Below are positions 6,401 to 43,439 of a stretch of 64,000 nucleotides of DNA, in pieces. Location of the stretch: the NCBI RefSeq assembly GCF_964204645.1, contig NC_134026.1, positions 7,029,950 to 7,093,949 on the forward strand, read 5' to 3'. The translations under genes were made by a program, and so were the position numbers. The stretch is from Tubulanus polymorphus. Lineage: Eukaryota; Animalia; Nemertea. Below the pieces are notes generated by a model. The model saw only the letters and a program-made list of their open reading frames with translations. It made no database searches and was not told the origin of the DNA. The first letter of the stretch is position 1. Every line of letters begins with the position of its first letter.

Positions 6401-9400
6401 TGACTCGCTTTGTCCCGGACATCAGTGCTGTCAACCGATCAAATTCCATTTAAGGATTAATGGTAGATTTATTAGGAATATTGAATGTTCCGATATGAAT
6501 ACAGCAAAACTATAAAAATTTTGGCTTTCACCAATTGAGAATATTTTGTTTTCAATCGGTAATACTTTTTCAGACATGCACGTTGTTTTCCCTGACTTGA
6601 TCTGCTATAAGAATCCAATAAGTTAACAAGGTCAAATCGAAAGACAAAGAAATAAACTGTTTGCAATTAGTGAACACGGTCAAATACGTAAGACATAGAA
6701 AGAAACTGTTTGATTCCATGTAGCCAAATCTAAACTCAGTGATTTGTAGAATTTTATTTCTTTTTGATCCTGGTCATAGATTTGAACATAATGTTCAGAA
6801 ATAAGGAGGATTTCTTCATGAACTAGTGATTTTAGGGTGATTCTATTTGTCATCAAATTACAGGAGAAATGTTAAAGAATTCTTTCATTGAGAAGAGTAG
6901 AGTCACCAGTGTTTTCCCTATAGAACTGGACATTTCTATACAAAGACATACTCCAACCTTTTTCAGATGTTTAACTATAATACATTTCATAATTTACAAT
7001 GAATTCTTGTACAACATTTATTGATATTTCCTTTAGTTACACTTATATTTTGCACAATAATAAACTTTCACGTATTCTAAATGCATCGTATTAGATTTCA
7101 GACAATTAATTTTTTATTTTTTTCCTGTTAACAATAAAGCATACAAATGAATTTTAGCGGTAACAAAGACTTTAATGATTTCTTTACATTAAAGTTAAAT
7201 TAGTTTTCCAATAGGCCTATGGGGAGGCACGGCCAGTGCCAGAACGTTTCTCATACAGTCAGTACACTCTCACACAGTCAGTACATTCTTACAGTATTGA
7301 TGACACAGTTAATCTTCGTGACTCATGAATCTAACTCAGATGCAGATTGGTGAAACTTATCACAGTTACATCGTTCTCATGTCTGTGGTAAACAGATCCG
7401 GAATCTACCGTACTGTGTCACTGGTCATTCTGGTTATCTTATTCTTCTTAGGAGCCTTCGGAAATTCAGCTACTTTCCTCATAATGATAAGTCGCAGATT
7501 CCGCAGTTTGTCCTACGCTAATTATCTTATCGTTTTGTCTCTCAGTGATTTGCTGTACTCTATTAATTATACATTGATACCTGTTTTACAGTTTGTTCTC
7601 CTTAATCTAAACATTGGTCCTATATTTATGATAACTTCACTGGTCGGTTGTCAAATCTACGAATTTGTAATGCAACTTGCGTGCAGCAATAGTTCGTGGT
7701 TGATAGTAGCAATATCTCTAGAACGTGCGGCAGTTGTGCTCTTCCCGTTCACATCTCGTTTGATATGTACACCGAGATTCGCCAGATTTGCTACATTTAT
7801 TATTACTGCAGTGAACGTAGTGGTTATAAATCTTCTACCAACTTTGTCGATACATTTTACCGACCAGTTTTTGGGATGTTACTATGAATTATCTGACAAA
7901 ATAAGATTTCTGAGCATAATTGTCATTCACAGTAACATTCTACCTTTGTCTTTGATTCTAATATCAAATTCTGTTATAATAATTCAGTTATTCAGAGGTT
8001 CAAAAATGGTTTCGTCTGATCAGAAAACTACAAGATCAAAACGTACGACAATAATGCTTGTAACTGTTTCACTCGCATTTGCGCTATTCACACTTCCAAA
8101 CGCTATTAGTGCATTGTTACCAATCTCACCAGAACAGAAAGATTTTCTATATGACATTGTCACACACTTTCATGTTTGTAACTTCGTCGTAAATTTCTAC
8201 ATTTATATTTTACTCGGACGAGAAATTCGTGAATATTTCTGTATGAAAATCTGCTGTAGAAATTCAGTGAAATAACCATTGATTTCAAGTAAGTTTGATT
8301 CACTTCATACAACTTTTTCAAATCTACACAAAACTGCTTATCAAGATCTCGCGGGACTAAAAATGTTCTCTGATAAAAGCGAATTTTGAGGCAGCCAGAG
8401 TGAAATGATTGCGATCACAATCTTTATTAGAATCAAAAGTCAACTTCCTTTTTTACTTCATCGGCAGCTCATTGGTCATCACACTAACCACACAAACCAC
8501 CAAACATGGCAGAGAGAATCAGTGGAAGGAATGTATAACTCAACTTGGAACGCCGGAGGGAAATTTAAAAGATTAGCAGCTATCATGCTTTTTACACTCT
8601 TTCCACTAGGCGACAGCATTAGCAGTTAACATATGGTCTAGTGGGAAGATGCTGAGCTAGTAATTTACTGGCCCGGGTTCGAGTCTCGCTCTATCCGCGC
8701 GCTTCATATTCTACTTATACTTTAAAGAACTCTCCTTATCATAGGAGACACGTTTTAGTGTAGAAATTGGCTGGAAAAGAGTAAATGAATAATAATAATA
8801 ATCAGCAGAATCTAAAAGGGTTTTTTGTGGTTTTTCGCGACATAGCAGAAAACCCTAACAAAGAACAACGCATCCAGAAGGATCGACTGAGTAAACAGTT
8901 TACTTTTGAACACAAAAATCATTTTTCTCAGATTTGCAATTACATGTGAAGATGATATCGTAGTGTTAAACACCACTGCATGTAGTAGGGCCCATTTTTA
9001 AAAAAATCATTATGCTGTCGGCTTCCAGCAGATTGCGAATATGCTTACAAAAAAGATTACAACACATGGAAGCAGCTGAATTAAACATTCTTATTTTCAT
9101 AGCAATCTACATGGTATATGATGTTGTTTTTGAGCAGGTGTTCTCCCTCTATTCATTGACCCTGTACTTGTCTTGTACTTCAGCTGCGTTCACACTCCGT
9201 ACTTCGCTGGTGCCGAATTCACCAAAATACAACACTTATACGGCCATTTACATTCACAGTACGAGTCCAATTCGGCACTTAGTAAGTCCAGTATAGTAGT
9301 CACCCATTGTGCCAATAGAGGGGAGTGTATTTAGAGTTTTGTACTACGAGAATGTGAATACGCCGCTAGCTAAGCGCCGAATCTGCGTTCATACTGTACA

Positions 9401-12400
9401 TTTCATAATTTACAATGAATTCTTGTACAACGTTTATTGATATTCCCTTTAGTTACACTTATATTTTGCACAATAATAAACTTTCACGTATTCTAAATGC
9501 ATCATATTAGATTTCTGACAATTAATTTTCGCTGTTAACAATAAAGCATACAAATGAATTCTAGCGTTAATGAAGACTTTAATGATGTCTTTACATTAAA
9601 GTGAAACTAGTTTTCCAATGGGCCTATGTGGAGGCACGGCCAGTGCCAGAACGTTCTCATACAGTCAGTACACTCTCACACAGCCAGTACATTCTTACAG
9701 CATTGATGACACAGTTAATCTTCGTGACTCATGAATCTAACTCAGATGCAGATTGGTGAAACTTATCAGAGTTACATTGTGCTCATGTCTGTGGTAAACA
9801 GATCCGGAATCTACCGTACTGTGTCACTGGTCATTCTGGTAATCTTATTTTTCTTAGGAGCCTTCGGAAATTCAGCTACTTTCCTGATTATGATAAGTCG
9901 CAGATTCCGCAGTTTGTCCTACGCTAACTATCTTATCGTTTTGTCTCTCAGTGATTTGCTGTACTCTATAAATTGTACACTGATCCCTGTTTTACAGTTC
10001 GTTCTCCTAAATCTAAACACTGGTCCTATATTTATGATAACTTCACTGGTCGGTTGTCAAATCTACGAATTTGTAATGCAACTTGCGTGCAGCAATAGTT
10101 CGTGGTTGATAGTAGCAATATCTCTAGAACGTGCGGCAGTTGTGCTCTTCCCGATCACATCTCGTTTGATATGTACACCGAGATTCGCTAGATTTGCTAC
10201 ATTTATTATTACTGCAGAGAACATAGTCGTTATAAATCTTCTACCAACTTTGTCGATTCATTTTACCGACCCGCTTTCGGGATGTAACTATGAATTATCT
10301 GACAAAATAAGATTTCTCAGCATAATTGTCATTCACAGTAACATTCTACCTTTGTTTATGATTCTAATATCAAATTCTGTTATAATAATTCAGTTATTCA
10401 GAGGTTCAAAAATGGTTTCGTCTGATCAGAGAACTACAAAATCAAAACGCACAACGATAATGCTTGTAACTGTTTCACTCGCATTTGCGCTATTCACACT
10501 TCCAAACGCTATCAGTGCATTGTTACCAATCTCACTGGAACAGAAAGAGTTTCTATATGACATTGTCACACACTTTCATATTTGTAACTTCGTCGTAAAT
10601 TTCTACATTTATATTTTACTGGGGCGAGAAATTCGTGAATATTTCTGTATGAAAATCTGCTGTAGAAATTCAGTGAAATAACCATTGATTTCAAGTAAGT
10701 TTGATTCACTTCATACAAATTTTTAAAATCTGCACTAAACTCCAGATCGCATGGGACCAAAAAGTGTTCTCAGAGGAAAGCAAATTTTGAGGTGGCCAGA
10801 GTGAAGTGGTCGTGTGAATTGCCTATTGTGCACAGTTCACAATGTTTGTACCCGGGTTTCTGTAACGGAGACTGTTGTAGGTAACAAGGCAGGAAAGCAG
10901 CTGAATTAAACATCTTTTTTCTTCATAGCAATCTACATGTAAGATGTTGTCGTTTTTGAGCTGGTGTTCTCCCTCTATTCATTGACCCTGTACAAATGAA
11001 TCTATGGACTATGAAAATCATGTACCCAATTTCATCAAACTATGACAATTAAAACTCAAAACCTATTTTATACATTACATATATAGATTGCTTAGAAAAT
11101 AGTCACATATTTTCATTCTACAGTAAATCTTGCCTTATTAGGACAAACTGCGACAACCAGAAATATCAGTCAGAGGTAAGCAAAGTCCGAGTTAAGGATA
11201 GGAAAATATGTTAGTAAGTCAGAAAAGCGATTCTATTTGTCATCAAATTGTAGGCAAAAGAAATGTGTAACAAATACTGAAGCTAAACAATTCTTTTTCC
11301 CGAGAAGAGAAGTGAGTGTTTATTTATTTCTGCTGTAGCCAGTTACCAAGCCTGACTGGTCACCACAGTATAACTGGGGGAGATGCTATTGTGTGACCAG
11401 TGTTTTGCCTGTATAGATAGATATTTTCAAACCTGTTCAGATGTTTTACTATGAAATATTTCACCAATGACAACAAACTCTTGTACAGCGTATGTTGATA
11501 TTTGATACAGTTACATTTATCATTTTGTGCAATAACAAACTTTCACATATTCTGATTAAATTATGTAAGATTTCCGAGATGTGAACTTCTAGTTACAGAT
11601 AATGGATCTTACAAATGAATTGTAGCTGTAATAAAGACTTAAATGATATCTTCGAATTAAAGTTAAATCTAATGTACAATGGGCCTAAGTGAGGGAATAC
11701 ATGGTTCCCGAAGATTCTCATACAGTCAGTATATTCCGAGACAGTCAGAATACTCACAGTCAGTACAGTCTCAGAAAGTCAGTACAGTTTCTTCTGCATC
11801 CTCGCATGCCAGGGTTTGGTCTCCAAAGATTTCTGTGGTAGACAGGTTTCCGCTCAGCAGCCAACAGTCATACACCTAGCCGATCAAATATGTGGTATTG
11901 AAAGAGCGAACACGCTCGTAAAAAGCAATGCATATGATTGGCTTAATACATAAGACAGGTGGGCGATGGTCGAAAACCTGTCTGCTAAAGAAATCTTAGG
12001 CAGTGTAATAGACCTAATGAAGGGTCTGCGGCCAGGGTTTATGTTGGTGCAAGCTTCGGCGGTAGGCAACCAAACCATGTATACAACTGACATTTTTCCA
12101 ACCGGTTCAGATGTTTTACCATAGGACATTTCACCATTTACAATAAATTCTTGTACAGCAAATATTGATATTCAATTTAGTAACCAGGGATGAAAACAGA
12201 GGCGTTTAAAAGTTGCGAAGCCCCTAAAGGGGGTTTGGGAGAAAATTTTGAAATTCCAAGGAGTTTTTGGCGCATCTGAGGCCCATTTTCCAATGACAAA
12301 ATAAGACTGCTGCGACGTGGTTGATCGTTTGTTGTGAAAAGGATGGCTCCGACGATATCTAAATCACTAGACCATGTTCATACTTAAATGAACTTGTCAA

Positions 12401-15400
12401 TAAATAAGAGTCGCCCCTATCTATAATTTTCAAATCTATCACTCAAGCCAAGCGTATTGCGCCTGAATTAAAACGATGACTACTTTTATTGAGCACGTAG
12501 GCTATGCTTTGTTGGATGAATTCAAGCACGCGACCGCAGATTCTAAATATAGATTTCCCACGCAGCGCTAAAAAATATTTCAGATACCGTAGCACCGATT
12601 TTATGAGACGCTTTTACGGTCTGTTCTTTAACGATCTAACATCAACTTTTCCCCAAGACCCTAACCCCCCCTATCATTTTCTCAACGGATCTACATCAAT
12701 CTCAAGAATGATAAAAATGGACCGCTTACCGTGGAAATCCGCGGAAGAGTTTCATCCCTGAGTAACTATTTACATTTTACACAATAGTGAACTTTTACAA
12801 AATCCGAGTAAATTGTGTTAGATTTCTGAGAATTGATTTTGTGTTTGGTGTTAACAATAAATCTTACAAATGAATTGTGGCTGTCATAAAGACTTGAATG
12901 ATATCTCAAATGATAAATCAATTTTCCAATACGCAAGATGATACGGTCAATTCCAGAACAATCTCAGAGACAGTCAGAACACTGTCAGTCACTATACTCT
13001 CAGACAGTCAGTACTCTATCAGACAGGCAGTACACTCTCATTTGATCCTCATGAATCATGAATCTAACTCAGATGCAGATTGGTGAAACCTATCACAGTT
13101 ATATTGTTCTTATGTCAGTGGTAAACAGATCCGGAATCTACCGTACAGTGTCACTGGTCATTCTGGTTATCTTATTCTTCTTAGGAGCCTTCGGAAATTC
13201 AGCTACTTTCCTGATAATGATAAGTCGCAGATTCCGCAGTATATCTTACGCTAACTATCTTATCATTTTGTCTCTCAGTGATTTCACGTTCTCTATCAAC
13301 TCTACTTTGATACCTGTTTTACAGTTTGTTCTCTTGCACGTCCAAGATGGTCCTATATTCATTATGAGTTCTGTAATCAGTTGTCAAATCTATGAATTTA
13401 CAATGACGCTTGCAGCCATCAATAGTTCGTGGTTAATAGTAGCAATATCTATGGAACGTGCGGCGGTTGTGCTCTTCCCGTTCACATCTCGTTTGATATG
13501 TACACCGAGATTCGCTAAATTTGCTATTTTGATAATTACTGCAGTGAATGTACTGGTTATAAATCTTTTACCAACTTTGTCGATATATTTTACAGACCAG
13601 TTTTTTGGATGCTACTACAAATTAGTTGACCAAATGAGATTTCTCAGCATAATTGTCATTCATGGTAACATGCTACCTTTGTCTTTGATTCTTATATCAA
13701 ATTCTGTCATAATATTTCAGTTATTCAGAGGTTCAAAAATGGTTTCGTCTGATCAGAAAACTACAAAATCAAAACGTACAACGATAATGCTTGTAACAGT
13801 TTCACTCGCATTTGCAATATTTACGCTTCCAAACACTCTTACAATATTGTCACCAATCTCACAGGAACAGAAAGACTTTCTTTATGACATCTTCACACAC
13901 TTCCATGTTTGTAACTTTGTGATAAATTTCTACATATATCTTTTACTGGGACGAGAAATTCGTGAATATTTCTGTATGAAAATCCACTGTAGGAATTCAG
14001 TCAAATAACCATTGAATTCACATTTGATTCACTTCACACAACTTTTTCAAATCTACACTTAACTCCACTTACCCCAGATCTCATTCCGAGGAAAGCAAAT
14101 TTTTGAGGTAGCCAGAGTGAAGTGATCACGATCGGAATTTTTATTAGAATCTAAAATCAACTTTTTTACTTCCTCTGCAGCTCAATGGTCATCACACTAA
14201 CCAGACAAATTACTAAACTCAGTAAGCTCAGTAGTCACGGCTTGCGTGCTGGACGTCTCCTGTTTCCAATCTTACGTTCAGGTTTTTGACTTTTCAATAG
14301 AAAATGGATGCATTTCTCTATGCGAAATAAAGAACTACCCTTGAGAGCTACTGGACGGACCTGTGTATTTATGTGGTTGAATGTTTCTACTTGTTTCCCC
14401 GTATAGAACTGACTACGTAACTTAGTATACGTATTAGATATTTTCCAAACGGTTCAAATGTTTAACAATAAGATAATTCACTATTTACAATGAATTCTCG
14501 TACAACCTTGTATATTGATATTCAATTTAGTAACATTTATATTTTACACAATAATAGGAGTAAATTGTGTTCGCTTTGCCAGAATTGATTCACTGTTAAC
14601 AATAAATCGATTCTAGGACAATTGCCTCTAGGACAATTGCCCCCCAGACAATTGTCACTCAAATAAAATACTTTTTGATTTGGATTAGTTTATTGGAATT
14701 AGTTATAGTGTTACTTTCGCCAATCAAAAACTTTAAATCAGTCCTCGAGTAATTAGCTGCGCTAATTAGCTAGCATTGGCTCTAATTAATTAATTAATTA
14801 GAAGCAAATATCTGTGTTACTTTAAGATTAAAAAGATTTAATTTGGGGGGCAATTGTCCGGGGGCAATTGTCCTGATACCCAACAAATCATATACAAATG
14901 AATTGTAGCTTTAATGACGAATTATCAGCTGTGTACATCTAGTGGTTACTATTTGCCGAAACCGAAGAGCTAACAGAAAGTTACTCTCAGAACATTTCTA
15001 CAGTAGAATTCGGATCAATGTGGGACCAACAAAATTCATCCGGTTTACGGGAAATCCGGATTGAAAATCATCTCCTTGTATATTGATGAACGAATGAACT
15101 GCAAATATTGTCCGGATTAGACCAAGATTCAGATTAAGCGGGTTCGACTATATAAGGATACAAGGTATATTGTATCAGGAATACTTACATGTAACATGAG
15201 AACTGGATCGGCGTGAATCAATCTGACAATATGCAACAACAAATCGCGGTAACTCAGGCCTTCTTCTCCTTTCTCTTTGAATTTCAAACTTCCCGTCACT
15301 TTCTCGCGGAATGTCCAGCTCTGTGTGAAAAACTGCAACAATTATTTGAGAGTTTGGAACGTGATTTGAACCCTTGATCCGCGGTAGAGGCGCACACACA

Positions 15401-18400
15401 CGCACACATATATATATATATATACACATTCAACTAACGATGGTTACACTACGTACGTATGCCGGTAGAGCATAATCAACCATGCTTCAAACACAGGCTC
15501 CAGTCGCGGTATTCAACCCAGTTCCGAGTGGGACATCTAGCGAGCTCTGAGGTACCTAACTGGTGTTCTGAGGAGGGTGCCTAGCTGGCTCCCTTGCTTG
15601 CACACCCAAGGGGTACCTAGCTGGTTCTGTTAAGTCAGCTCTGAGTGGGGTATCTAGCTGGCTTTCTGAGGGAGGTACCTAGCTGGTTCTGTTGGGCTAA
15701 GCCAGCTCTGAGCAGGTACATAGCAGACTTTCTGAGGTGGTACCTAGCCGAATTTCTTTGGGGGGTTTCTAATTTTGAGGGGTTTCCTAGATTCGAACCC
15801 AACTCCTGAGGGGTCCCTATTTTCAACCTGGCTTTGAGTAGAATCATGAAATAATAGAAATTCTCTCATAGTTCAAATAATTAAAAGATTTAGTTGAAGC
15901 AAGAATGGACGAATTGAAAACGAATTACGAGAGGTTTGTCTCATTTTATCACTGTCAATAATCTCAACTAAACTTTGCGCAAAACACAAACGGAAACAGG
16001 ACTAAATATACCCAAGCCTCATACAGTGACCTCACTATCTGTAACATCACTGCCTCTCTTGGTACACAAGGTCAACTAAACCTCCCTATTATCAAACTAT
16101 GTTATACCGGAGATATTATTTCTAACTCCCAGATTCATCTTCTAAATACCTCTCTAACCTACCGGCAGAGGTTCTAGATCATCGCGAGAGAGGTCATAGA
16201 GGTATGTGACAGTATCGGGTCTAAATGGGTTAACAGTATCGTATTGATAATGAACACAGCAGGATTGAGGGAGGATAGCGACAAGAGGAAGATCGACACA
16301 CGAAGTGACCATTTCAAACATGAAGAAATATTCCAAAATCCAAGATAAACTTACACTCGATGATGGTCACCGTGTTTTACTGATCGAACAAAAGAGGGGG
16401 TAAAAGGGAGTGAGCTGGGGGGTTGGAGGGGGGAAGACTGACTGTATGAAGCGATGGTTGAACTATGCACTAAAACCCTCCACCACCTACCTTTAAATAA
16501 CTGAATATATGCAATATACACAGGTGTGTGATGAACAGGTGAACATAATATATACGAGTATACGTAGTGTAGTGTGCACCAATGCCACTGGCTCATACGT
16601 GGTGTAGTGTGTACCAATGCCACTGGCTCAAGAGGGATTGATTGATTTGATTGATTGATGGTGGTTATTAGAGGGGTGAGTTAGAGAACGAACACTGGAC
16701 CTACAAACAACCAAAAAAACAAACTAAAACAATCGAAAATCATTCAGATTCACAAATATCTATCGGAGACTCACCGATGACTCCATCGGTAAGTGTAGAG
16801 AGTCATCGGTGAGTCGTTAGTGAGTCATGGTGTTAATGCAGGTTATATTGTGAACAAGGTTTAAAATGCAGGTTAAAACAGTGATAGGATTGAATCAGCA
16901 CGCAGCCCAACAGTTCGCACCGTTATTTGACTCTGGGATTTTATGAAATAATTCACCGAACTGCAGAGTCAAAGTTAACAGCAAACTGTAGAACTAAATC
17001 TAAGTTTACATAGTTATCTGTTGTTTGTTAGTAGAATATTATACCATGCTTCAATAAGAGCAATTCAATTAGAGTAATCAGGTTATCCACTCCTGGACTT
17101 GGTTCCACAGTTCTCTCAGTTAGAAATAAAACCAATTTCAAACCCTTCGAGTCGAGCTGAACCACAGAACTGTCGAACTGAGTCCAAGATTTCGTAAATT
17201 ACCGGGTTGAAATTGGACATTTGCTTCATTTACGTACAAACCCTTAACCACCACCACCAGCAGCAGCAGCAGCTAGAGGACAGAGTAATAATTACCTGAC
17301 TCATCCGTAATGGCGGGTGTGACAGCGCCCCCTGTGTCACTTTATTCAACGTATCAACGAACATGGTACGGAAAAACGCAGCTTTACTGTAGATGAAATC
17401 AATTTTCGGCCACCAAGGTAACCGCGTCTACAACGATCAGCATACAATGCATTTAATAAGAAAATATGACGTCCATAAATTTTAAGTTTATTCGCAATCT
17501 TACGTAACTTTATTCTACTGCATCCGTTCGAACAATTATGGCTTAGATTTAATACCAATTTTAAAGACCAGGACCCAGTTCCACAGTTCTGGGTTCAAAT
17601 TTGACTCACGAGTTAACTCTAAACTCACAACTGTGGAACTGGATCCAGGGGCTGCAGTTGCTCAGAAGTTGGTTAAAGATAACGGCAAATAAATACCATA
17701 GCAAAAATGAACTTTTAATTGTAATTATGTCAACTATCCACTGGTTCTTAAGTTTTTGGACTTAACCCTGAAACTGGTTCTAAATTGTTACGTAGATTAT
17801 CCAACACTCTTCAAGGCACATGTACACAGACACTCCGCAAAGACACCGACACTCACTGACACACTCACCCGCGCACACCTTGCAGACGCACTTACCTGAG
17901 TGATGATTCGGTGAAGAGCATTGACTAGCACAAAATGAAAAGTAGATGGCGCCTGTTGATTGAGACAAACTTTCAGAATGTCGTTATTGTGAGGCGTAAT
18001 TCGGAAACACGACACAAAACAATCAATCATTAAATCGATATCCTGCGAGATGTACTGCTGACCTCTAGAGAACGGCTTCGCTTGATTGAATAACAACATC
18101 TACAATACACAAACAATTACTTCATTTGATCTTGAAGCAATCACTTCACTTTTATTCCACCTCAGTTAAGTTTAATCGGATCCAACCTCAGCATTCTCTC
18201 AAACAGCATCAATATTAAACTATCAGAATTACTTTTAGTATTTGGGATCCACCGACGATAATATTCATCCTCATTGTCTCTCAACCCAGGGGTTGAGTGA
18301 GGAAACATGGTCTGATAGAAAGACTCCTCAATGCGCAGTAGTGCAGGCCAAGCTTGAATCGTTCTTCTCTCAACCCAGGTGTAAAAATGAGATGAGCTTG

Positions 18401-21400
18401 CTCCAGATGGATAGATGACTCCTCGGTGCGGAGTAGTACAGTAAGCTAAGCTTCTTCCCTCTGTCCACCAGTGAGGGAACCTGGTCTGATAGACAACTCC
18501 TAAAAACTGCTCGAAGTTTGGATGTCACCGTACCCTACCTACTGGTTTTAGTTTGTATGATCAAATCTTTTTACTGAATTCACTAATTCACCTGATGCTC
18601 ATTCACCTGATGAAGCTTCTATACATTAGACGCGAAAGCTCGTGCATCAAATAAATAGTTAACCTATATACTACTACTTGTCTCGTTATTTATTCTGAAT
18701 TCCCTAAATACATATCTGGATCTATCAAATTGTGTTTCGAGTAACAATTACCTCTCAAGTCAAATTCTGGACTGTATTTGTTCATCATATTTTTCATGAG
18801 ATTGGAAACAAATTACAATTACAATTACCCAGTCCCACAATTCTCAATTAAGATTCGACTCTTTATAGAGATAAAACTAAATGAAAATGGACTAATTTCA
18901 ACTCTATATTCAAACTAAACCGATGCAACTGTTGAACTGAGTCCAGTTAAGTCTAAATTATTTGTCTACGCAATTTTCACCGTGAACTATTAAACCGGGT
19001 CGAGGGAACTGAAAATACTTACACGTAAATCTTGTATGACAGAGTGCACCAGTTTAAACAGTACATTAGTGCTATCTTTCGTATTAATATAAGTAGACGC
19101 TTTACACAGTTTCACACAGGTCACCGCTGCTCCTTCGGTTAACTGTTTATTCTGATGGTGATGACTACTCAAAGCTTTCTTTACTTCATCTATAAATCCT
19201 TTCTATAAAACATCAACGAAAACGTATCACATTCAAAATCGATGAAGTTATAAAAAAAAATTTCTCCTTTATTATTCTATTCTACGGGCATCCTCGCTCG
19301 GCAGGGATTCGAGCTTGATAGCATTGCTTAACTCAGCCCTGCCACACTAGACTGGGTGCGCAGGTACATGCGCAGGTTTGCTACACATATCAGACTGCTT
19401 GTATAATCGCTGAGGCAAATTTCACTAACTATAAATGGAAAAACCCGGCCTAGAATACATCAGATTCACTAATAATGACATCATCTTAGCTGAATGGGTA
19501 GCTGCGCACTCACTCTAGTGTGGCAGGGTTTCGTATCGTGGAAATCTTGATGCCATCAGGTTCAACCCAGTACTATATGGAAATAACTTGACCAAAAATC
19601 TCTCCCAGAACAAGACTGAAACAGCCAGGTTTCCAGTTTTATAAATCACGGCTTATATTTGAATTGTTAATATAACCCTAAATAGTTCATTCGAGTTTCA
19701 ATTGTGAGTTTCTTCAATATGTAGATTGACAAACAATTATTTGTTTACTAAGGGAATTACAAGACTTACTTTTTTCATATGTTGAGGTGAACAAGGAGCA
19801 CCATTATCAGCATTTGTGATCTCTTCGAGAATTTTCTGGAAGAAAAAACTAAATTGAACATATCTGAAAAACGATCGGAAAACAATAGAATGAATGATGA
19901 TAAGGTGAACTTACGGGACAGAGCACCAGCAACATCATCTGTAGAGGCCACACGGCAGCCTTCCTACGATTACTTTCGGCAAAAGTAGTAAATAATTCGA
20001 ATAGACGATCACAGCAATCTGTAAAACATAGACAGGCTGGGGTCAGACCTAGTACAACAGAAAAAGACAGGAAACACAATTAATTATCTGCAATAGAAAC
20101 AACAACACAACAACAACGACGACGATGACACAATAGTACAACATTCAACATCGAACAAACAAATATATATCAGTAACAACGGCTTACGACCTTAGAACCC
20201 TAGAACATTTATAGAACCCTTGTAGCCTAGAACCGTTAAATTCATAGAAGCCTGATATCCCACAACATTGAAAATTAATAGAACCCTAGTACCCAAGAAG
20301 AATCTTGACGTTCATAGGACCGTAATATCCCATAACAGTTAGGCTAAGACTCTCATAGAGCACAAATACCTTATAACATTTCAGGGAACTTGAGCACCCT
20401 ATAAGAATCACAGAACCCTAGTATCCCATAACATTCTGACAACTTGAGTACTCCACAACATTCCGAGAACTTAATACACTATAACATTCAGAGAAGCCTA
20501 GTATCCCATAACATTCAGAGAAGCCTAGTATCCCATAACATTCAGAGAAGCCTAGTATCCCATAACAGTCACAGAACTTTTAAGTGCCGCATAACATTCA
20601 TAGAACCCTAGTTTCCAAACCATTACCTTTACAGGACCCCGGGATACAGATTACAGGATAAACTGAACACCAGTGTCTCAGATAAGTATCTGATTCCAAC
20701 CAATGACCACAACCTTAACTGAAATAAGTACTAAGTATCCCATCCCAAATTTCAACCGCACACTGCCGACAGTAATACGGCTGATTTCAAAATGCCTTTT
20801 TTCTTCACTACCGAAATTCAGTTAGCCAAACACTTAAGTTACGCATGCATAGATCCTACACTAATAAAACGATAGATCAATTCACTCGTAACTAGAATTA
20901 GTTTTATACATAAATAGAGACAGTTTGGTAGAGTAGATAGTTTTCACATGCTTAGAGGGGTAAGAATCATGCTGACTGACTGACCGACTGACCGACCGAT
21001 AGAGGGACTGACTGACTGACTGACCAACCCACTATCATTATCAATTATAAACAGGTACATACATGCTGTAGTATTTGAAAACACAGCACATCAAATAAAC
21101 TATCACTCATGAAATAACTTAAAATAACATACATCACAAAGATCGAGGGAACAGTTGTTCAAACGAGTTGGTTAAAGTTAACTGAAAATCTAAATTATAA
21201 TCATATCGATGTATTCTTTAACAAACTCTTTACCAACTGGACCAAGTTCAGCAGTTCTACAGTTAAAATCCAGGGTCTATAGAGTTAAAACATTGAAAAT
21301 CAGCTAATTTTAACTCTACGCTCAAATTTTAACTAAGAACTATTGAACCATTCACTGATTTATATTCATCCAGTTTCTCAATTGAAATTTACCGGGACTC

Positions 21401-24400
21401 GGTCCCACAGTTCTCGGTTAGAAATTGATTCTATAGAGTTAAAACATTGGAAATTAGATTTTGAATTAATTCTAACTGTACAAACCGAGCTACGAACTGA
21501 TGAACCGAGTCCATAGATACACAGTGGAACCTCGTTACAGCGAACTTCACTGGTCAAGAAAATCTGTTCGTTATAACCGATAGTTCTATATTTGTTATAT
21601 CCGATGAATTGTTGTATCCGAGTTCGTTATAACGAGAGGTTTCACTGTAGTATGAACAAGAGAAACTGTATCACAGGGTGACCACTTTGCCCCATTTAAA
21701 AATTGCCGAGAAAGTTTCCCATGTTACACAGCAAAATTTCGGCCACTGGTAAATGGAGAAATGTTACAATTTGTTCATTTTTCATGAATAAAACATTAAG
21801 AAATGCCTGATTAAAAGCATATACAAATTCCCAGAGAGTTTTCCAGGTTTTTGTCAGAAATTGGGAAATTCCACAATTTTTCAAAGATTTTTCAGATTTG
21901 CTGAGGTTTCCAGGTCAGTGGCCACCCTGGTATGTGAACTATAAGATATTTTCGGGTATAGATACTTGCCTGCAAGTTCATCATCTTGTTTTTTCTGTAA
22001 GTCAGTGAACTCTTCAGGGTGATTATCCATCCAATTCCAGATTGCCTGTAAATAATACATCATAACATTCAACAGCGATTCAGTATCCTTGACAATTAGG
22101 ACATTGTCAATATAGTGAAATAAACTACTAGCTCAAGAAATACAATTCAGACTTGTCGACAAAATTGATCTGGACCCAGTTCCTGTTATGGAGCTAGTTC
22201 CACAGTTCAGGACCCACTTCAACAGTTCAGGATCCAGTTCCACAGTTCTGGACCCAGTTCCACAGTTCTGAATCCAGATCCACAGTTGTGAGTTAACAAC
22301 TCATTGAAATAACTGATAATTCAGATAACTATCTCACAACACTGAAGATTGTAAAACCCCTCACACAACACGTTACTGATAAATACCTTCTCCAGATTCG
22401 TGGCCAAACATAACTGAGCATTCTTCTTCATGAATTTAAACTTTGTGGCCACCTCTTCATGAAACGAGAAATAATCATAAAATCAAAAGATTATTTACTA
22501 AAGCACACTTCACCCCCAAGTTTCAGGATGCAAAAGTTGACCAGTAACTCTTAAATCAATTCAATTTCAATGAACCCAGAACTATGCTACACGAAGTTTA
22601 ACATAAAATTCGAAAATATTTCTTAAGATTAGAGGAAAATTCATCGACTTCCTAAATATTCTTAAACCGAGAAATATTACTAAATTCTCAATTTTTCTCA
22701 ATTTCCCAGTAATGTAGGAACCGCGTAATGCGTTGGAATTTAAATTTTGAATTTTGTCAAACTGACTGCGTGACAAATAGAGAAAATAGGAAAACAGATA
22801 TTTACCATTTAATAACCGAGTTAACCGATGTACGTCAACGTCAATGTGTTGGATAAGTTCAAGGTCAGTAAATTGGTCGTTATCGTCACTGCTGTTCAGC
22901 GCTTGATTGATTCTACAAATAAACAGAACAAAAATATTCATGACGAAACACTGACAGTTAACATTCTACAAAGCGTTTCAGAGTTCTTACAGACCAACAG
23001 AATTGAAAATTTCCCCCTATTTCCCATACGCTTGACCACAAACTCCCTGATTGAATCATAAGATATTCTCGGTGGGGGCTGTTTCTTATGAAGAGGTTCC
23101 TTGTGCCACTCGTCAACAGCAAGAATAATAAGAAACCAAAAATTTAAATTCTCTGACTTTTCCCAGATTTTCAAGAAAAGAGTCAAAATTCACCGATTAT
23201 CGCTGATCTGTAAGAACCATATCGATATTGAACACAACAAACCTGTTGGAAATCCGATTGAAGATGGCCGTGAAGTTATTCAAACTCAACGCGAAGAGAA
23301 CTTTTGAAGCGAGGTTTCTCTGAACAGGCCACGGATTATCAGATCTCTGATTCAATAACTACAAAACATCAACGCATACAACTATCATTGCAGCAACTAG
23401 AGATCTCCACTTGTTAGGAGGAATTTGAGATAGATGGACCAGTTGTATGAGGGATTGAGATAGATCTCGACCGGTTAGGAGGAATTTGAGATAGATTTCG
23501 ACCTGTTATAACCGTCGAATTATGAGGAATTTGAGGTAGATCTTCATGTGTTATGAGGAATTTGAGGTAGATCTCGACATGTTATGAGGAATTTGAGGTA
23601 GGTCTCGACATATTATGAGGAAGTTGAGGTAGATCTTCATGTGTTATGAGGAATTTGAGGTAGATCTCGACATGTTATGAGGAATTTGAGGTAGGTCTCG
23701 ACATATTATGAGGAATTTGAGGTAGATCTTCATGTGTTATGAGGAATTTGAGGTAGATCTCGACGTGTTATGAGGAATTTGAGGTAGATCTCGATATGTT
23801 AGGAGGAATTTGAGGTAAATCTCAACCTGTTATAAGGAATTTGAGGTGATCTCGACATGTCATGAGGAATTTGAGGTATGTCTTGATGTGTTATGAGGAA
23901 TTTGAGATGGATCTCGCCCAGTTATCAGATTCAAAATACCTTGCAGATTTCAGGCAGTAAATTCTGTACATATTTAGCCTCATCCAGTCTCGTGTGGGTG
24001 ACATCTTTCGGCTGCTAAAAAATGGACGAAAAAACGGGAACATTATGAAATTCGTCATCGTAAGTTAAACCAAGGTTACTTGAGATGTTACTGACCCCGT
24101 TTAGAACTTGTTCCAATGTGTCTAAAATTATCAGTTGTGATTCGATATAATTCCTACTCGCCTCATCACCAACTATTTTCTGAAATTACAAAATAATGTA
24201 AAAAATTTTACCAACCTAAGAACCAGAGAGCTCGCTAGTATTGGGACCGCTGTAAATATTTCACCGAGTTGAGAATCAGGGAATCCAGTAGTGTTAAGGA
24301 GGAGACTAACTGTCTAAACTGTAGATCTAATTGAAGTAAACAGGCTCCTCTTCGTACTTACCATAGTATCGACATTTTTCAATGTATTTGTTAACCCGTT

Positions 24401-37535: not shown

Positions 37536-40500
37536 TCAAGAATCCGCTTTATCATTCAGTAAAGTAGATCTATCAATTCCCCTCCCTCCTCTACTGCCGC
37601 GTCCCCCGTGGCTTCTAACCCGAGGAGCCCCTCTACTGAAGCCCCTACCCCTATGATGACTAGATGGTCTTTTATCTACACTATCGTTGACCTCATTCCG
37701 GTCATAATTTCTATAGGTCGTGTAGCAGCGCCCCCTGGTAGATGCCCGTCTACCCGGCGCCCTTCCTCTCAGAGATCTTTCATGGTTATCTACTGCTTGT
37801 TGTATTTTCTGATTCTCCTCTGAAGCTGTTCCTGTCTCAGTTCGTTTATTTTCAGCTGTCGCCACAAATGTTATTTTGTTAACGCTATTCGTCTGCCAAT
37901 CACGTTTCACTTCACTGCCACCAGGGGTTTCTGTACCACGATCATTGTTTTTAAATTGTCTTTCTCTGCGTCCCCTACCATATTGAGTAGTCCGATTATT
38001 TCTATGTCGGTTCTCATGACTGCCACTAGGGGTCTCACAATCATGGGCTTGTCTATCGCTACATCGCTTCCTTTCATTGCCACTAGGCGTCTCACAATCA
38101 CGGGCTTGCTTATTACTACATCGGTTTTTCTGATTATCAAAAGGTGTCTCACTATCTCGGCTCTGTCTATTCCGCTTCTCATGACTGCCACTAGGTGTCT
38201 CACAATCTCGGGCTTGTTTATCACTATATCGGTTTCGGGTTTGTTTATCACTATATTGGTTTCGCTGATTGCCAATAGGGGTCTCACCATCACGGCTCTG
38301 TCTATGTGTCTCACTATCTCGAGCTAGTTTATAACTACACCGGTTCTCCTTATTGCCACTTGGTGTCTCACAATCTCGGCTCTGTCCTTGCCGGTTCTCC
38401 TGTCTGTCACTAGGTGTCTCTTTCCTCCTAAAACCACGATCATTCCGGCTGTAACATTTTTCCCGGTTGCTGTAGTAGTCATTCTTGCGTCTGTTACCGT
38501 GGTAATCATTGCGCCTGTATTGTTCCGATGATTTTGATCGCGTTTTACTGTGATCTGGATTCTCGGGAATATCGACGTCAGGAAGAGGTACAGCAATCGA
38601 CACCGTATCACCGTCCTTAAAAACATACAAAATCTTAGAAAATAAGACAGACATATTTTCAAAATTAAAATGTTTTTTAATCTGATGAAAAAAAACCCCT
38701 ATTACCTGAACTAAGAACTTGTTGCTCTCTTCTTCCACGTCAATGATACCACCGCGTGATTTCTGTTTCGCGTATAGTTCGGCCATTTTTTTCTGCATTG
38801 CTACAATATCGTTGCTAGGTTGATATATCAGATCGTCGGCCGCTGGTTCGCTGCTCGTCGGATTATCAAGAATTTCTTCTACGCACGACGTGATTGGTTG
38901 ACGGCATGTCGGACAAAGAACCTAAATTTATAATTAAATTGAGTAACACGTAAATTAAAAGATTCTTTTGAGAAATGTGACTGCACTCGTGGTGACTTAA
39001 GTTACCTTGGTTATCTAAACTAAACTAACTAAACATTTACTTCTTTAACAGAGAGAGAGAGAGGGATATGGAAAATTTGATGGCGAGGGACAGAAGAGAG
39101 AGAGGGACAGATGGAGGGAGAGGAGAGTGATGGAGAAAAGGCGAGGGAGAGAAGAGAGAGGGACACATAGAGAAGAGAGAGATGGAGAATAGAGAGGAAG
39201 GTGAAAAGGAAAAGTGGGATGATATCAAAACGAACCTGTTTAGTTTTCTCTTGTTGTTTATGAGGTAGAATTTGTAGATGATTTTCATCATCATCATCAT
39301 CGGTATTAAGTAAACAGAACGTCACGTATCTCTGTAGACAGTGTTTATGTAGATAGTGATAACAGGGAGTCTTCGTGAATTCCGAATCAGAGTGAAAATG
39401 TTCCAGACAAACGACGCACGGACAATGAGGAATATTACTGTCGGTTAACAATTCTTTAGATATCTACAATTCAAACATATGACGTACATCATTTACACCA
39501 GTATACGTATATTAATTAGACAATAATCAATCTGCACCTTGGAACCTTCACCACTTCATACATTCATCATTCATCATTAGTATAAAGGATTGATGAACAG
39601 TTTTGAGAATTTACTGACAAAATGTCTAATGTCTGGTTGGACTCCGTGTCTGCTGCTTGAGGTTGTGAACACATGCGAGTGTTTGGGCGAACAGTTTTTG
39701 AAAGTGTGCTCAAAAAACGAATTTTTAGTGTTTGTAGTTTATTTTCAATTAAAAATGTCTAAGGTGAAGACGTACTGACCACATGTGAAATAAGGACGAA
39801 CAGTTTTTGAAAGCGCACTGATAAAATGTCTAATGTTTGGTATTTCAAGTTGATATTCAATCGAAAATGTTTCAGGTGAAGTTCTGAACACATGTGGGTG
39901 AAGTGTTGACGATCAGTTTTTTGAAAGTTTGCTGTCAAAATGTCTAAGTTTGGGTTTTTGTAGTTCACTTTCAATTAAACTCATGATGGTGAATGGTGAA
40001 CCCATTTGAAGTGTGGATGATCACAAATTGGTATAGAGGTGATAAACTGTTGAATGTTTGATTGAGCGCAGGGTCCAGGCTAAGAGCATACACACTTCAG
40101 ACAGCAGATTAAATTGAAAGATTCTAATCAAATTTTACCTCAATCAATTCATATAACATCGGGTTCCCTCGACTATTCACAGCATGTTCATACAGTCTCC
40201 TGTGTAAACTGAAACAACAACAAAATCGCTATGAAATAAAAAGACAGTTTGTAAGGAAGATTTAACACAATTCACTTCTTACCCAATAATCTCTTCATCA
40301 GCCAAACCCCTCGGGTTCTTAATTTCAATTCCTGGTAATTCATTAGGATACTGAAATACAAAAATATTTCTCAGATAATTATTGTTTTAGTGAAAGTGGA
40401 CCCTATGTAAAACTGTCACTGCCATATGACAATTGAAACTGCATCTGTTATCAATAATCATGCTTATTCAATTAACCAACTTTTGAGCAACTGACCCCGA

Positions 40501-41524: not shown

Positions 41525-42378
41525 TTTGGAAATCTGCGGCGACATACGAGGGTGGCTCCGACTGTCACATGCCAGAGACTGAACGGCTGACTACGAACAT
41601 TCGGCATCGCGCGTTTTCGATAGAAGTCCAATTTCAAATCAACTGCCATAGACATGACATGGAGAGCTACGGTGAACAAATATCATCACTCTGACCACAA
41701 AAAAGTACTAACCGGACGATTAAAAATTTCCCTAAGAACAATGGCACGGCCGGGGTGCCCGTGGCGGCCGCAGCACTAGCGGAGAGGAGCCGTAAAATCC
41801 GCAATAGATCCCATGGGCCCCGGGCCCAGTTTCAGGAAATCGATTTAATGTCTTCATTAATTCGCTTTTTAAAATCGTTACCAGAGCGAGTGCCCGTGCC
41901 CGTGCCACTTAGGATTTCATTTTTACCGGCATGGAATCGTGTGGTTGCTTTTATTGGATCTATGGGCTTTGTTACGTGAACAAAATAAATCTTGAAAATA
42001 AAATAGATCTTGAAAATAAACAACAGATTACAAAGTTGAACTGATCAGCAGGATTCAATTGAATTCTTCCGTTGTTGCACCAGTTGGTTTTTCGCCCTGA
42101 CATGTGCGTGAATTGTTAGGCTTCAGTTATTATGTACACCGAGGGAGTGTGAACAAATACGTACTGTGCAACTACAGTGAAACCGCATCGGGCCGCCCGA
42201 CCCGGAGGATAGCGGTCAGTCAAAGGTAATTAAATCAATCATTACATAAAACGGGCTTCGAATCACTAATTTCATTACCACCTCAACCACACGCCGGCCA
42301 AATTGTATGACTTCGGGTCCCAAATCTGACCGCGAATATCTTGTAATCGTTTCAATTTAGGTTGGAAGAATCGCAAGA

Positions 42379-43439
42379 ATGGATAGATATAGCACCAGAA
42401 GATCGTCAAAATCGAATTACATTCGATCCAAATTAGAATTGAATATTCAACATATGAATTCACGAGAAATCGAAATATTTTGGAAAATCATCCCCTACAA
42501 CAGTGACAACAATGAAGAACACGTAGATTGTTTCAGTCTGGATGTGACGAATATTACTGCCGATTTTAAACGATACAGTTTTAATGATATCACTAATGAT
42601 ACCGTCCGTTTTAGAATCCCGTCTCTGACCCCCGGATGCAGATATAGAATGAGATTACGAGCTTTGAAACAGACAAGCAACCCGGGTGATTCAAATCCGA
42701 ACACTAACAGGGCTCTATTCGTGAGCAACGCTCTACATATCGATGCGGTCTATAACATCCGAGAACTGACCTGTCTGATGGAGAAAGCTTTGCGTTACAT
42801 AGCACGAAATAAAAACTCTTGCGGCACCGCCGAATTTCGACGATGTGAATTTCTGTATCGGAACAAATCTGACGAATATTTCAGTAAAATTCGACTCGAT
42901 TCGGATGGAATTATGCGCCCCTATATAAAAGATGGCAATGGCGACCCAGCGTCGCCGATAAATAATCGCGTAGACGGGTTGTTTTTTGCGACTTGGGTCG
43001 ACCCGAAAACAGGTCAACCACCGCTGATTTCTCCATACGGCGAGCTCCGTTTACATATCCCGGCTTCTAGACTTTTCAAAACTAGCTGCAATCTATATTT
43101 CGCAGATTTCTATTGCGTTTTCCAAGACCACTTTATCATATCAGTTCTAAAAGTGGAAGCCGAGCCGATGAATTCTGTTCCACAAACCTCATTCGGCTGA
43201 ATCTCGACGATAATGACTTTCTCTATTGGGATGCTAGGGTTGAAAGTCTAATGGTAACTAGGGCGATTTCTGTTGAAGTAATGTACACTGAAGATGTGGA
43301 TATTACTGAAGAATTGGGACATGGAGGTTTTTTTCGTAGTACCACGTTAGAACTACATTCGGCGGCGTCCCATCATAAGCAACCTTCCTGCACTAGTTGT
43401 AATATCTATACGAATACAAATGAAGGCTCTTTGATTTAG
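42379..43439 (+). pseudogene. Intronless PHYHIP/PHYHIPL-like gene with one frameshift near 43145 (pseudogene or assembly error)
   Basis: FN3-like N-terminus (LTPGCRYRMRL), then LYRNK..YF, YIKDGNGDPASPINNRVDGLFF, SPYGELRL, NLYFADFYC; the continuation GSRADEFC...VEVMYTEDVDI...CTSCNI is in the next ORF 43113..43439. Confidence 0.85.

What the first reader, a model, noticed from the sequence alone, without database searches (positions are those of the whole stretch)
16163..16500. Three phase-interlocked NF1 micro-exons at the site of human alternative exon 10a-2
Seen: AG|TTATTTAAAG|GTAGGT (10 nt), AG|25 nt|GTAAGT and AG|58 nt|GTAGGT. Joined they read LFKVKHGDHHRVPDTVTYLYDLSRDDLEPLP with no stop. 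Each is 3n+1 long, so only all three together (93 nt) or none keep the frame. A UGC lies about 11 nt upstream of the 10-nt exon acceptor. Known: human NF1 has a 45-nt alternative exon (10a-2 / 12alt13) at this same junction (...RMAP|SLTFKEK), and UGC near the 3' splice site marks SRRM4/eMIC-regulated neural microexons. Inference: an all-or-none neural splicing cassette, with partial inclusion feeding NMD, at an old insertion hotspot of neurofibromin.
Basis: partly seen in the sequence, partly recalled or inferred. Interest (0 to 1): 0.8.

Follow-up and report, generated by a model that had tools for sequence, protein, structure and literature searches.

The report
Possible linked mini-exons in ribbon-worm NF1
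Three short stretches flanked by splice signals lie in one intron of a ribbon worm's neurofibromin (NF1) gene and would, if spliced in together, add 31 amino acids to a predicted flexible loop; they are likely a lineage-specific optional insert of a known kind, their splicing is untested, and they share only their position with the human optional exon.

Summary
The sequence facts hold. Three AG..GT segments of 10, 25 and 58 nt lie in a phase-0 intron of NF1 (minus strand); all three together give 31 open codons, any one or two give a stop. The gene is 99.9% identical to the RefSeq NF1 of the nemertean Tubulanus polymorphus, whose single model skips them. The cluster is unusual: consensus-like donors, AG-free zones of 87 and 129 nt, and 2-14 of 3000 shuffles matching at strict settings, but 22-60% at loose settings. 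The site lies in a predicted disordered loop. Against: no similar insert in any relative checked, including 15 Lineus isoforms and 28 orthologous introns; 11 other in-frame combinations exist, e.g. 10+11 nt. Human 10a-2 shares the junction but is ubiquitous, predicted transmembrane and absent from mouse and zebrafish: no homology, no neural precedent. Only one segment has a nearby UGC. Verdict: about 65% that some are real exons, 40% for the co-included 93-nt cassette; linked frame-restoring cassette exons are known. Modest interest.

The parts
17296..17427 (-). NF1 constitutive exon (human exon 12 equivalent), 132 nt, phase 0
   Evidence: 100% match to P0198 residues 433-476
16501..16587 (-). 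87-nt AG-free zone before segment 1, UGC at -13; overlaps a 35-nt two-copy repeat
16491..16500 (-). candidate exon 1, 10 nt, donor 8/9 consensus, weak acceptor
16380..16490 (-). 111-nt spacer intron; C/T-rich tract, CTCAC at -35; in frame and stop-free, so retention also keeps the frame
16355..16379 (-). candidate exon 2, 25 nt, donor 7/9; one run's contig carries another base at 16361 that would change His to Arg
16221..16354 (-). 134-nt spacer intron with a 129-nt AG-free zone
16163..16220 (-). candidate exon 3, 58 nt, donor 7/9
16163..16173 (-). rival 11-nt form of exon 3 from an internal acceptor (47-nt AG-free zone, CU-rich tract); 10+11 nt also keeps the frame
16701..16723 (-). T-rich tract ending in a strong unused acceptor at 16700 (second best of 1003 intronic AGs); any exon from it to the three donors contains a stop
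15189..15320 (-). NF1 constitutive exon (human exon 13 equivalent), 132 nt, phase 0

Best explanation
The three segments are likely a linked, usually skipped set of alternative exons specific to this nemertean lineage: when all three are spliced in they would add 31 hydrophilic residues to a predicted disordered loop of neurofibromin's N-terminal helical region, and partial inclusion would create early stops that nonsense-mediated decay is inferred to remove. Shown: the splice dinucleotides, lengths, phases, stops and the identity of the gene. Inferred: that the sites are used; that weak acceptors with long AG-free zones and strong donors make skipping the default; that the short 111- and 134-nt spacers couple their recognition, as for linked cassette pairs in mammals; that decay, not a special splicing switch, makes the output all-or-none. 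A neural eMIC trigger for the 10-nt exon is possible (about 0.4 if the exons are real) but not shown.
For: Donors rank 11, 14 and 18 of 1134 intronic GTs on a matrix from the gene's own exons and score within the constitutive range; 3 of the 5 donors with >=7/9 consensus in the 1975-nt intron lie within 330 nt. AG-free zones of 87 and 129 nt are in the top 1.1% and 0.4% of 1003 intronic AGs. They are the only two sites on the masked 64-kb minus strand that pair a zone >=85 nt with a strict donor within 60 nt; compact three-exon chains occur only here, 0 on the 64-kb plus strand and 0 in 344,742 antisense bases of 66 loci. Shuffles: 14 and 2 of 3000, 6 and 3 of 4000. Junction = model residues 176|177, inside the only segment with pLDDT <50 (166-197) between two helices. 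The loop varies in length among animals: ticks up to +18, bdelloid rotifers about +18, 2-4-residue isoform differences in oysters, limpets and snails. Weak 3' sites, long AG-free zones and CU-rich tracts are the described features of eMIC-type exons, and such programs are rewired between phyla. Lineus NF1 has many alternative exons elsewhere that the single Tubulanus model lacks, so that model may be incomplete.
Against: The RefSeq model XP_074643053.1 is a single isoform without the insert. No insert of this size or sequence in 73 of 186 fragments spanning the junction, 54 of 81 full-length proteins, or the cluster members listed, including 15 of 21 Lineus longissimus entries. No similar peptide or conserved cluster in 28 orthologous introns from metagenome loci; none is from a close relative. 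Acceptors of segments 2 and 3 score below all 17 constitutive acceptors (-5.8, -4.2). Loose criteria are met by 22-60% of shuffles, and strict ones were set after seeing the site. Chance look-alikes exist: a 102-nt stop-containing stretch with stronger sites at 14174-14073 and a 10-nt UGC/GTAGGT site in L040/L042 absent from L041. The pyrimidine-rich region is open in several frames anyway. A variant at 16361 changes an amino acid (one change, little power).
Confidence: 0.4

Rival explanations
1. The segments are chance splice-site matches in a pyrimidine-rich stretch of intron and are never spliced at a meaningful level.
For: Absent from the annotation and from every relative checked; two very weak acceptors; 22-60% of shuffles pass loose criteria; look-alikes elsewhere; one AG-free zone overlaps a tandem repeat; a scan of very many introns will surface 0.1-2% events.
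Against: Strict criteria pass in <=0.5% of shuffles, also with local composition kept, and never in about 409 kb of real antisense sequence for compact chains.
Confidence: 0.33
2. One or more segments are real but act as poison exons: included singly or in pairs, or from the strong acceptor at 16700, they introduce early stops and tune NF1 levels through nonsense-mediated decay; the open 93-nt frame is incidental.
For: All 6 partial combinations give stops far upstream of later junctions; the strongest unused acceptor in the intron (16700) yields no open chain; the peptide has no relatives and carries an amino-acid-changing variant.
Against: Three 3n+1 lengths and 31 open codons fit a coding use, although at roughly 1 in 10 odds by chance (inference).
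Confidence: 0.15
3. The exons are real and coding but in another arrangement: two true microexons of 10 and 11 nt (21 nt, 7 residues), or a 146-nt exon (spacer retained) plus the 58-nt exon.
For: Both chains are open and in frame; the internal acceptor at 16173 has a 47-nt AG-free zone and a CU-rich tract; 10 and 11 nt both fit the microexon size class.
Against: The 129-nt AG-free zone ends at the 16220 acceptor, and the strong donor at 16354 would be left unexplained.
Confidence: 0.12

Closest known systems
Linked (LNK) adjacent cassette exons with combinatorial frame preservation (PMC2432081, passages read)
   Same: Adjacent alternative exons whose summed length keeps the frame; short intermediate introns.
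   Different: That study covers pairs in human and mouse (957 human linked pairs), mostly old, conserved and usually included; here three segments, apparently lineage-specific, skipped in the annotated form, and linkage is untested.
eMIC / SRRM3/4 / Srrm234-dependent neural microexons (bioRxiv 10.1101/2021.02.24.432780 and 10.1101/2024.09.17.613571, passages read)
   Same: Weak 3' sites, long AG-free zones, CU-rich tracts; UGC 13 nt before the 10-nt segment.
   Different: No CUAAY branch point in 100 nt before any segment; no proximal UGC for segments 2 and 3; the 58-nt segment is beyond the usual microexon size (recalled, 3-27 nt); neural inclusion untested.
Human NF1 exon 10a-2 / 12alt13 (PMC5530422, PMC7692384, passages read)
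   Same: Same exon 12/13 junction; in-frame insertion into the same loop.
   Different: One 45-nt exon, ubiquitous and low-level, predicted transmembrane, not found in mouse, rat or zebrafish; here three frame-shifting segments encoding a hydrophilic peptide. No homology. The neural NF1 exon is 9a / 11alt12, one intron upstream.
Poison (PTC) cassette exons coupled to nonsense-mediated decay (recalled)
   Same: Each segment or pair creates an early stop.
   Different: Classic cases are highly conserved autoregulatory exons; no conservation seen here.

Membership tests
NF1 / neurofibromin gene | Flanking exons align to neurofibromin | tested here: met
   human residues 465-508, E 3.7e-06; 99.86% over 710 aa to P0198
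Linked cassette exons | Summed length keeps the frame while single exons do not | tested here: met
   (10+25+58 = 93 nt); not the only in-frame chain
Linked cassette exons | Short intermediate introns | tested here: met
   111 and 134 nt within a 1975-nt intron
Linked cassette exons | Correlated inclusion in transcripts | not testable with these tools
   needs RNA reads; see Tried and rejected
Linked cassette exons | Conservation in relatives | tested here: inconclusive
   absent in all relatives checked, none closer than another nemertean class
eMIC-dependent neural microexons | Weak 3' site with long AG exclusion zone | tested here: met
   segments 1 and 3: 87 and 129 nt; segment 2: 35 nt
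eMIC-dependent neural microexons | UGC close to the 3' splice site | tested here: inconclusive
   1 of 3 segments (-13); also 3 of 16 constitutive acceptors; motif present in only 74-79% of known targets
eMIC-dependent neural microexons | Strong CUAAY branch point | tested here: not met
   no CTRAY in 100 nt before any of the three
eMIC-dependent neural microexons | Neural-specific, Srrm234-eMIC-dependent inclusion | not testable with these tools
   no tissue RNA and no whole genome
Human exon 10a-2 / 12alt13 ortholog | Same intron position | tested here: met
   phase-0 intron also kept in arthropod and annelid loci
Human exon 10a-2 / 12alt13 ortholog | Single 45-nt exon encoding a transmembrane segment | tested here: not met
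   three segments, 93 nt, best 19-residue hydropathy -0.34

The most novel reading that the evidence does not exclude
A three-part, all-or-none neural splicing switch in nemertean NF1: eMIC-driven inclusion of a 10-nt microexon licenses two further frame-shifting exons, so that only nerve cells make a 31-residue-longer neurofibromin and every partial product is destroyed; the same loop was recruited independently for an optional exon in humans.
Probability: 0.15. Interest if true: 0.55.

Novelty: new member of a known kind. Interest (0 to 1): 0.27.

Why it matters
If real, it is an unannotated NF1 isoform and a compact natural example of three frame-shifting exons that work only as a set, useful for asking whether coupling comes from splicing or from decay of partial products. 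It would also mark the exon 12/13 loop as a place where neurofibromin tolerates insertions in more than one lineage. It opens no new mechanism: linked frame-restoring cassette exons are described, and no function for the peptide is in view. If it is chance, it is a caution that such interlocks are easy to find by eye.

Tried and rejected
RNA test: no RNA holder listed for 15100-23380; the three runs listed cover the introns and gave no exon-exon joints, so they behave as DNA and say nothing on splicing. No whole genome is held, so Srrm234/eMIC and genome-wide splice statistics were not checked. First homolog search with the downstream exon: 4 candidates, none significant; full-length NF1 lay outside its length range. 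One junction script had a faulty pattern (second half) and was rerun; the rerun missed 27 of 81 proteins, most of which were covered. The 31-residue peptide against 351 fetched proteins: best E 11; against 66 loci: best E 0.10, a 6-residue match 4.5 kb upstream of the exon in L058, rejected as chance. A stem that would hide the third donor: z -1.0, rejected. Transposon origin: no copy of the segments elsewhere in the window, no Pfam match for the two open frames over them, no Rfam match near a curated threshold. Lineus alternative exons near residue 850 were not found in the 3.7 kb of window available. Earlier findings: nothing returned. PMC8580823 (passages) says nothing on this loop. Print searches for an invertebrate NF1 microexon (listings only) showed none; supplementary microexon tables were not seen and may bear on this.

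Full report
What is there. The window holds the 5' part of an NF1 gene on the minus strand. Sixteen exons between 24505 and 4844 splice to 709 open codons that are 99.86% identical over 710 aligned residues to P0198, named neurofibromin-like of Tubulanus polymorphus, XP_074643053.1, a nemertean; matches to P0198 run from 28403 down to 2388. The finding lies in the 1975-nt phase-0 intron between two 132-nt exons. The downstream exon aligns to human neurofibromin from residue 465. Human 12alt13 (10a-2) lies between exons 12 and 13 (PMC5530422, passages); that exon 12 ends at codon 464 is recalled and fits.

Observation. The three segments, their AG and GT ends, lengths (10, 25, 58 nt) and the 31 open codons are as reported. 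Each of the 6 partial combinations reaches a stop within or before the end of the downstream exon. The UGC begins 13 nt before the first segment. But the interlock is not unique: with all YAG acceptors and the four GTA[AG]GT donors, 39 candidate exons give 12 open in-frame chains, including 10+11 nt through an internal acceptor at 16173 and 146+58 nt with the 111-nt spacer retained. The region is pyrimidine-rich and open in two frames for 109 and 70 codons.

More than chance? On matrices from this gene's own 17-18 sites, the donors score 7.6, 7.2 and 6.7 (constitutive leave-one-out 3.4-13.5) and rank 11, 14 and 18 of 1134 intronic GTs; the acceptors score 2.3, -5.8 and -4.2 (constitutive -3.6 to 15.8). 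AG-free zones are 87, 35 and 129 nt; 1.1% of 1003 intronic AGs reach 85 nt. In dinucleotide shuffles of the intron, a chain of three frame-shifting, jointly open exons appeared in 14/3000 (whole) and 2/3000 (300-nt blocks) with strict donors and zones >=30 nt, in 293 and 220/3000 with loose donors, and in 1793 and 1580/3000 with loose donors and no real zone rule. With donors of >=7/9 consensus: 94 and 81/4000, 6 and 3/4000 within 400 nt, 1012 and 889/4000 without the zone rule. In real sequence, compact chains occur on the window's minus strand only at this cluster (3 chains), not on its plus strand (0 within 400 nt, 2 within 2000 nt), and not in 344,742 antisense bases of 66 loci; sites pairing a zone >=85 nt with a strict donor numbered 2 (both here), 4 and 5 respectively. 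The criteria were chosen after seeing the site. Look-alikes do arise: 14174-14073 has stronger sites and contains stops, and L040/L042 carry a 10-nt site with UGC and GTAGGT that the related L041 lacks. Reading: the cluster is unusual, at roughly the 0.1-2% level per intron, which is suggestive, not proof.

Relatives. No insert of about 31 residues was found at this junction in 73 of 186 proteins whose sequence spanned it (the longest extra, about 18 residues in P0185, looks like intron read-through), in 54 of 81 full-length proteins, or in the cluster members listed, among them 15 of 21 Lineus longissimus entries, 2 Lingula, 1 Owenia and about 85 mollusc entries. The Tubulanus cluster has one member, without the insert. 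Lineus isoforms vary at other places that the Tubulanus model does not show, so a single model is weak evidence. The loop itself is tolerant: ticks add up to 18 Gly/Ser-rich residues, bdelloid rotifers about 18, and oyster, limpet and snail entries differ by 2-4 residues. A metagenome scan gave 66 loci; 61 were checked for the next exon and 28 introns of 174-1763 nt extracted (several near-duplicates, three with imprecise ends). The intron position is kept in most arthropod-like and annelid-like loci; no similar peptide or conserved cluster was seen. None is a close relative, and eMIC programs are described as almost wholly rewired between phyla, so absence counts only modestly.

Structure. 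An AlphaFold2 model of P0198 residues 301-650 (28 sequences, mean pLDDT 76.6) places the junction at model residues 176|177, inside the only stretch under pLDDT 50 (166-197), between helices 148-166 and 200-213. A 31-residue insert would likely be tolerated. The peptide is hydrophilic (GRAVY -0.74, best 19-residue window -0.34).

The human link. 10a-2 is 45 nt, ubiquitous at low level, predicted transmembrane (PMC7692384, passages) and was not found in mouse, rat or zebrafish. The neural NF1 exon is 9a, one intron upstream. The shared position reflects a conserved intron in a tolerant loop, not homology.

The neural link. eMIC-type exons have weak 3' sites, long AG-free zones, UGC near the 3' site, CU-rich tracts and CUAAY branch points (10.1101/2021.02.24.432780, passages); UGC occurs in 74-79% of targets (10.1101/2024.09.17.613571, passages). 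Segment 1 fits size, zone and UGC; segments 2 and 3 have CU-rich tracts but their nearest UGC is at -90 and -41; none has CTRAY; 3 of 16 constitutive acceptors also have a proximal UGC. Inconclusive.

Variation. A 2206-nt stretch of one X1 contig differs from the window at 5 bases and one indel; one change, at 16361, lies in segment 2 and would turn His into Arg. About 0.2 changes are expected in 93 nt, so this has little power.

How it most likely works. Best reading (0.40): a linked, usually skipped set of lineage-specific alternative exons; full inclusion lengthens a disordered loop, partial inclusion is removed by decay. Linked adjacent cassette exons that keep the frame by their summed length are described, with short intermediate introns (PMC2432081, passages), so this would be a new member of a known kind, unusual in having three parts. 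Rivals: chance (0.33), poison exons (0.15), another in-frame arrangement (0.12). Interest 0.27; the all-or-none neural switch has probability about 0.15 and would merit about 0.55.

Noticed in passing
window 7322-8275, 9728-10681, 13055-14008 (+ strand): Three tandem, intronless 317-codon frames with Pfam 7tm_1 matches (E 1e-15 to 7e-15; repeats 78-97% alike) nested on the opposite strand in the 8.8-kb NF1 intron after exon 15189-15320: rhodopsin-type GPCR genes. Human NF1 also has nested antisense genes, in another intron and unrelated (recalled).
   Followed up: partly
window 15193-16717: Both runs of sample S2 have a contig joining 15192 to 16718 (1525 nt skipped, 4-nt microhomology, not GT-AG; sides 155 and 105 nt), removing the three segments and most of a constitutive NF1 exon, while other S2 contigs lie inside the gap. 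No such long-sided joint in a 19.9-kb control. Deletion allele or library chimera; unresolved.
   Followed up: partly
window 16767-16816: Near-perfect 18-bp inverted repeat in the same intron, z -5.2; it contains the GTGAGT donor-like site at 16774. Only a weak Rfam match.
   Followed up: partly
window 20087 (minus strand): Best-scoring unused acceptor in the NF1 introns (14.8, 95-nt AG-free zone), 69 nt upstream of the exon starting at 20018: possible alternative 3' site.
   Followed up: no
window 21970: A constitutive NF1 intron with a GC donor.
   Followed up: no
window 42361-43200 (+ strand): Open frame matching PHYHIP_C (E 1.3e-25) with a weak fn3 match: a PHYHIP-like gene upstream of and divergent from NF1.
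   Followed up: no
window 37536-38921 (- strand): 461-codon open frame with internal repeats and no Pfam match.
   Followed up: no
P0201 cluster (Lineus longissimus NF1), alignment to P0198 residues about 813-855 and 2480: Several combinatorial alternative segments in Lineus isoforms that the single Tubulanus model lacks.
   Followed up: partly
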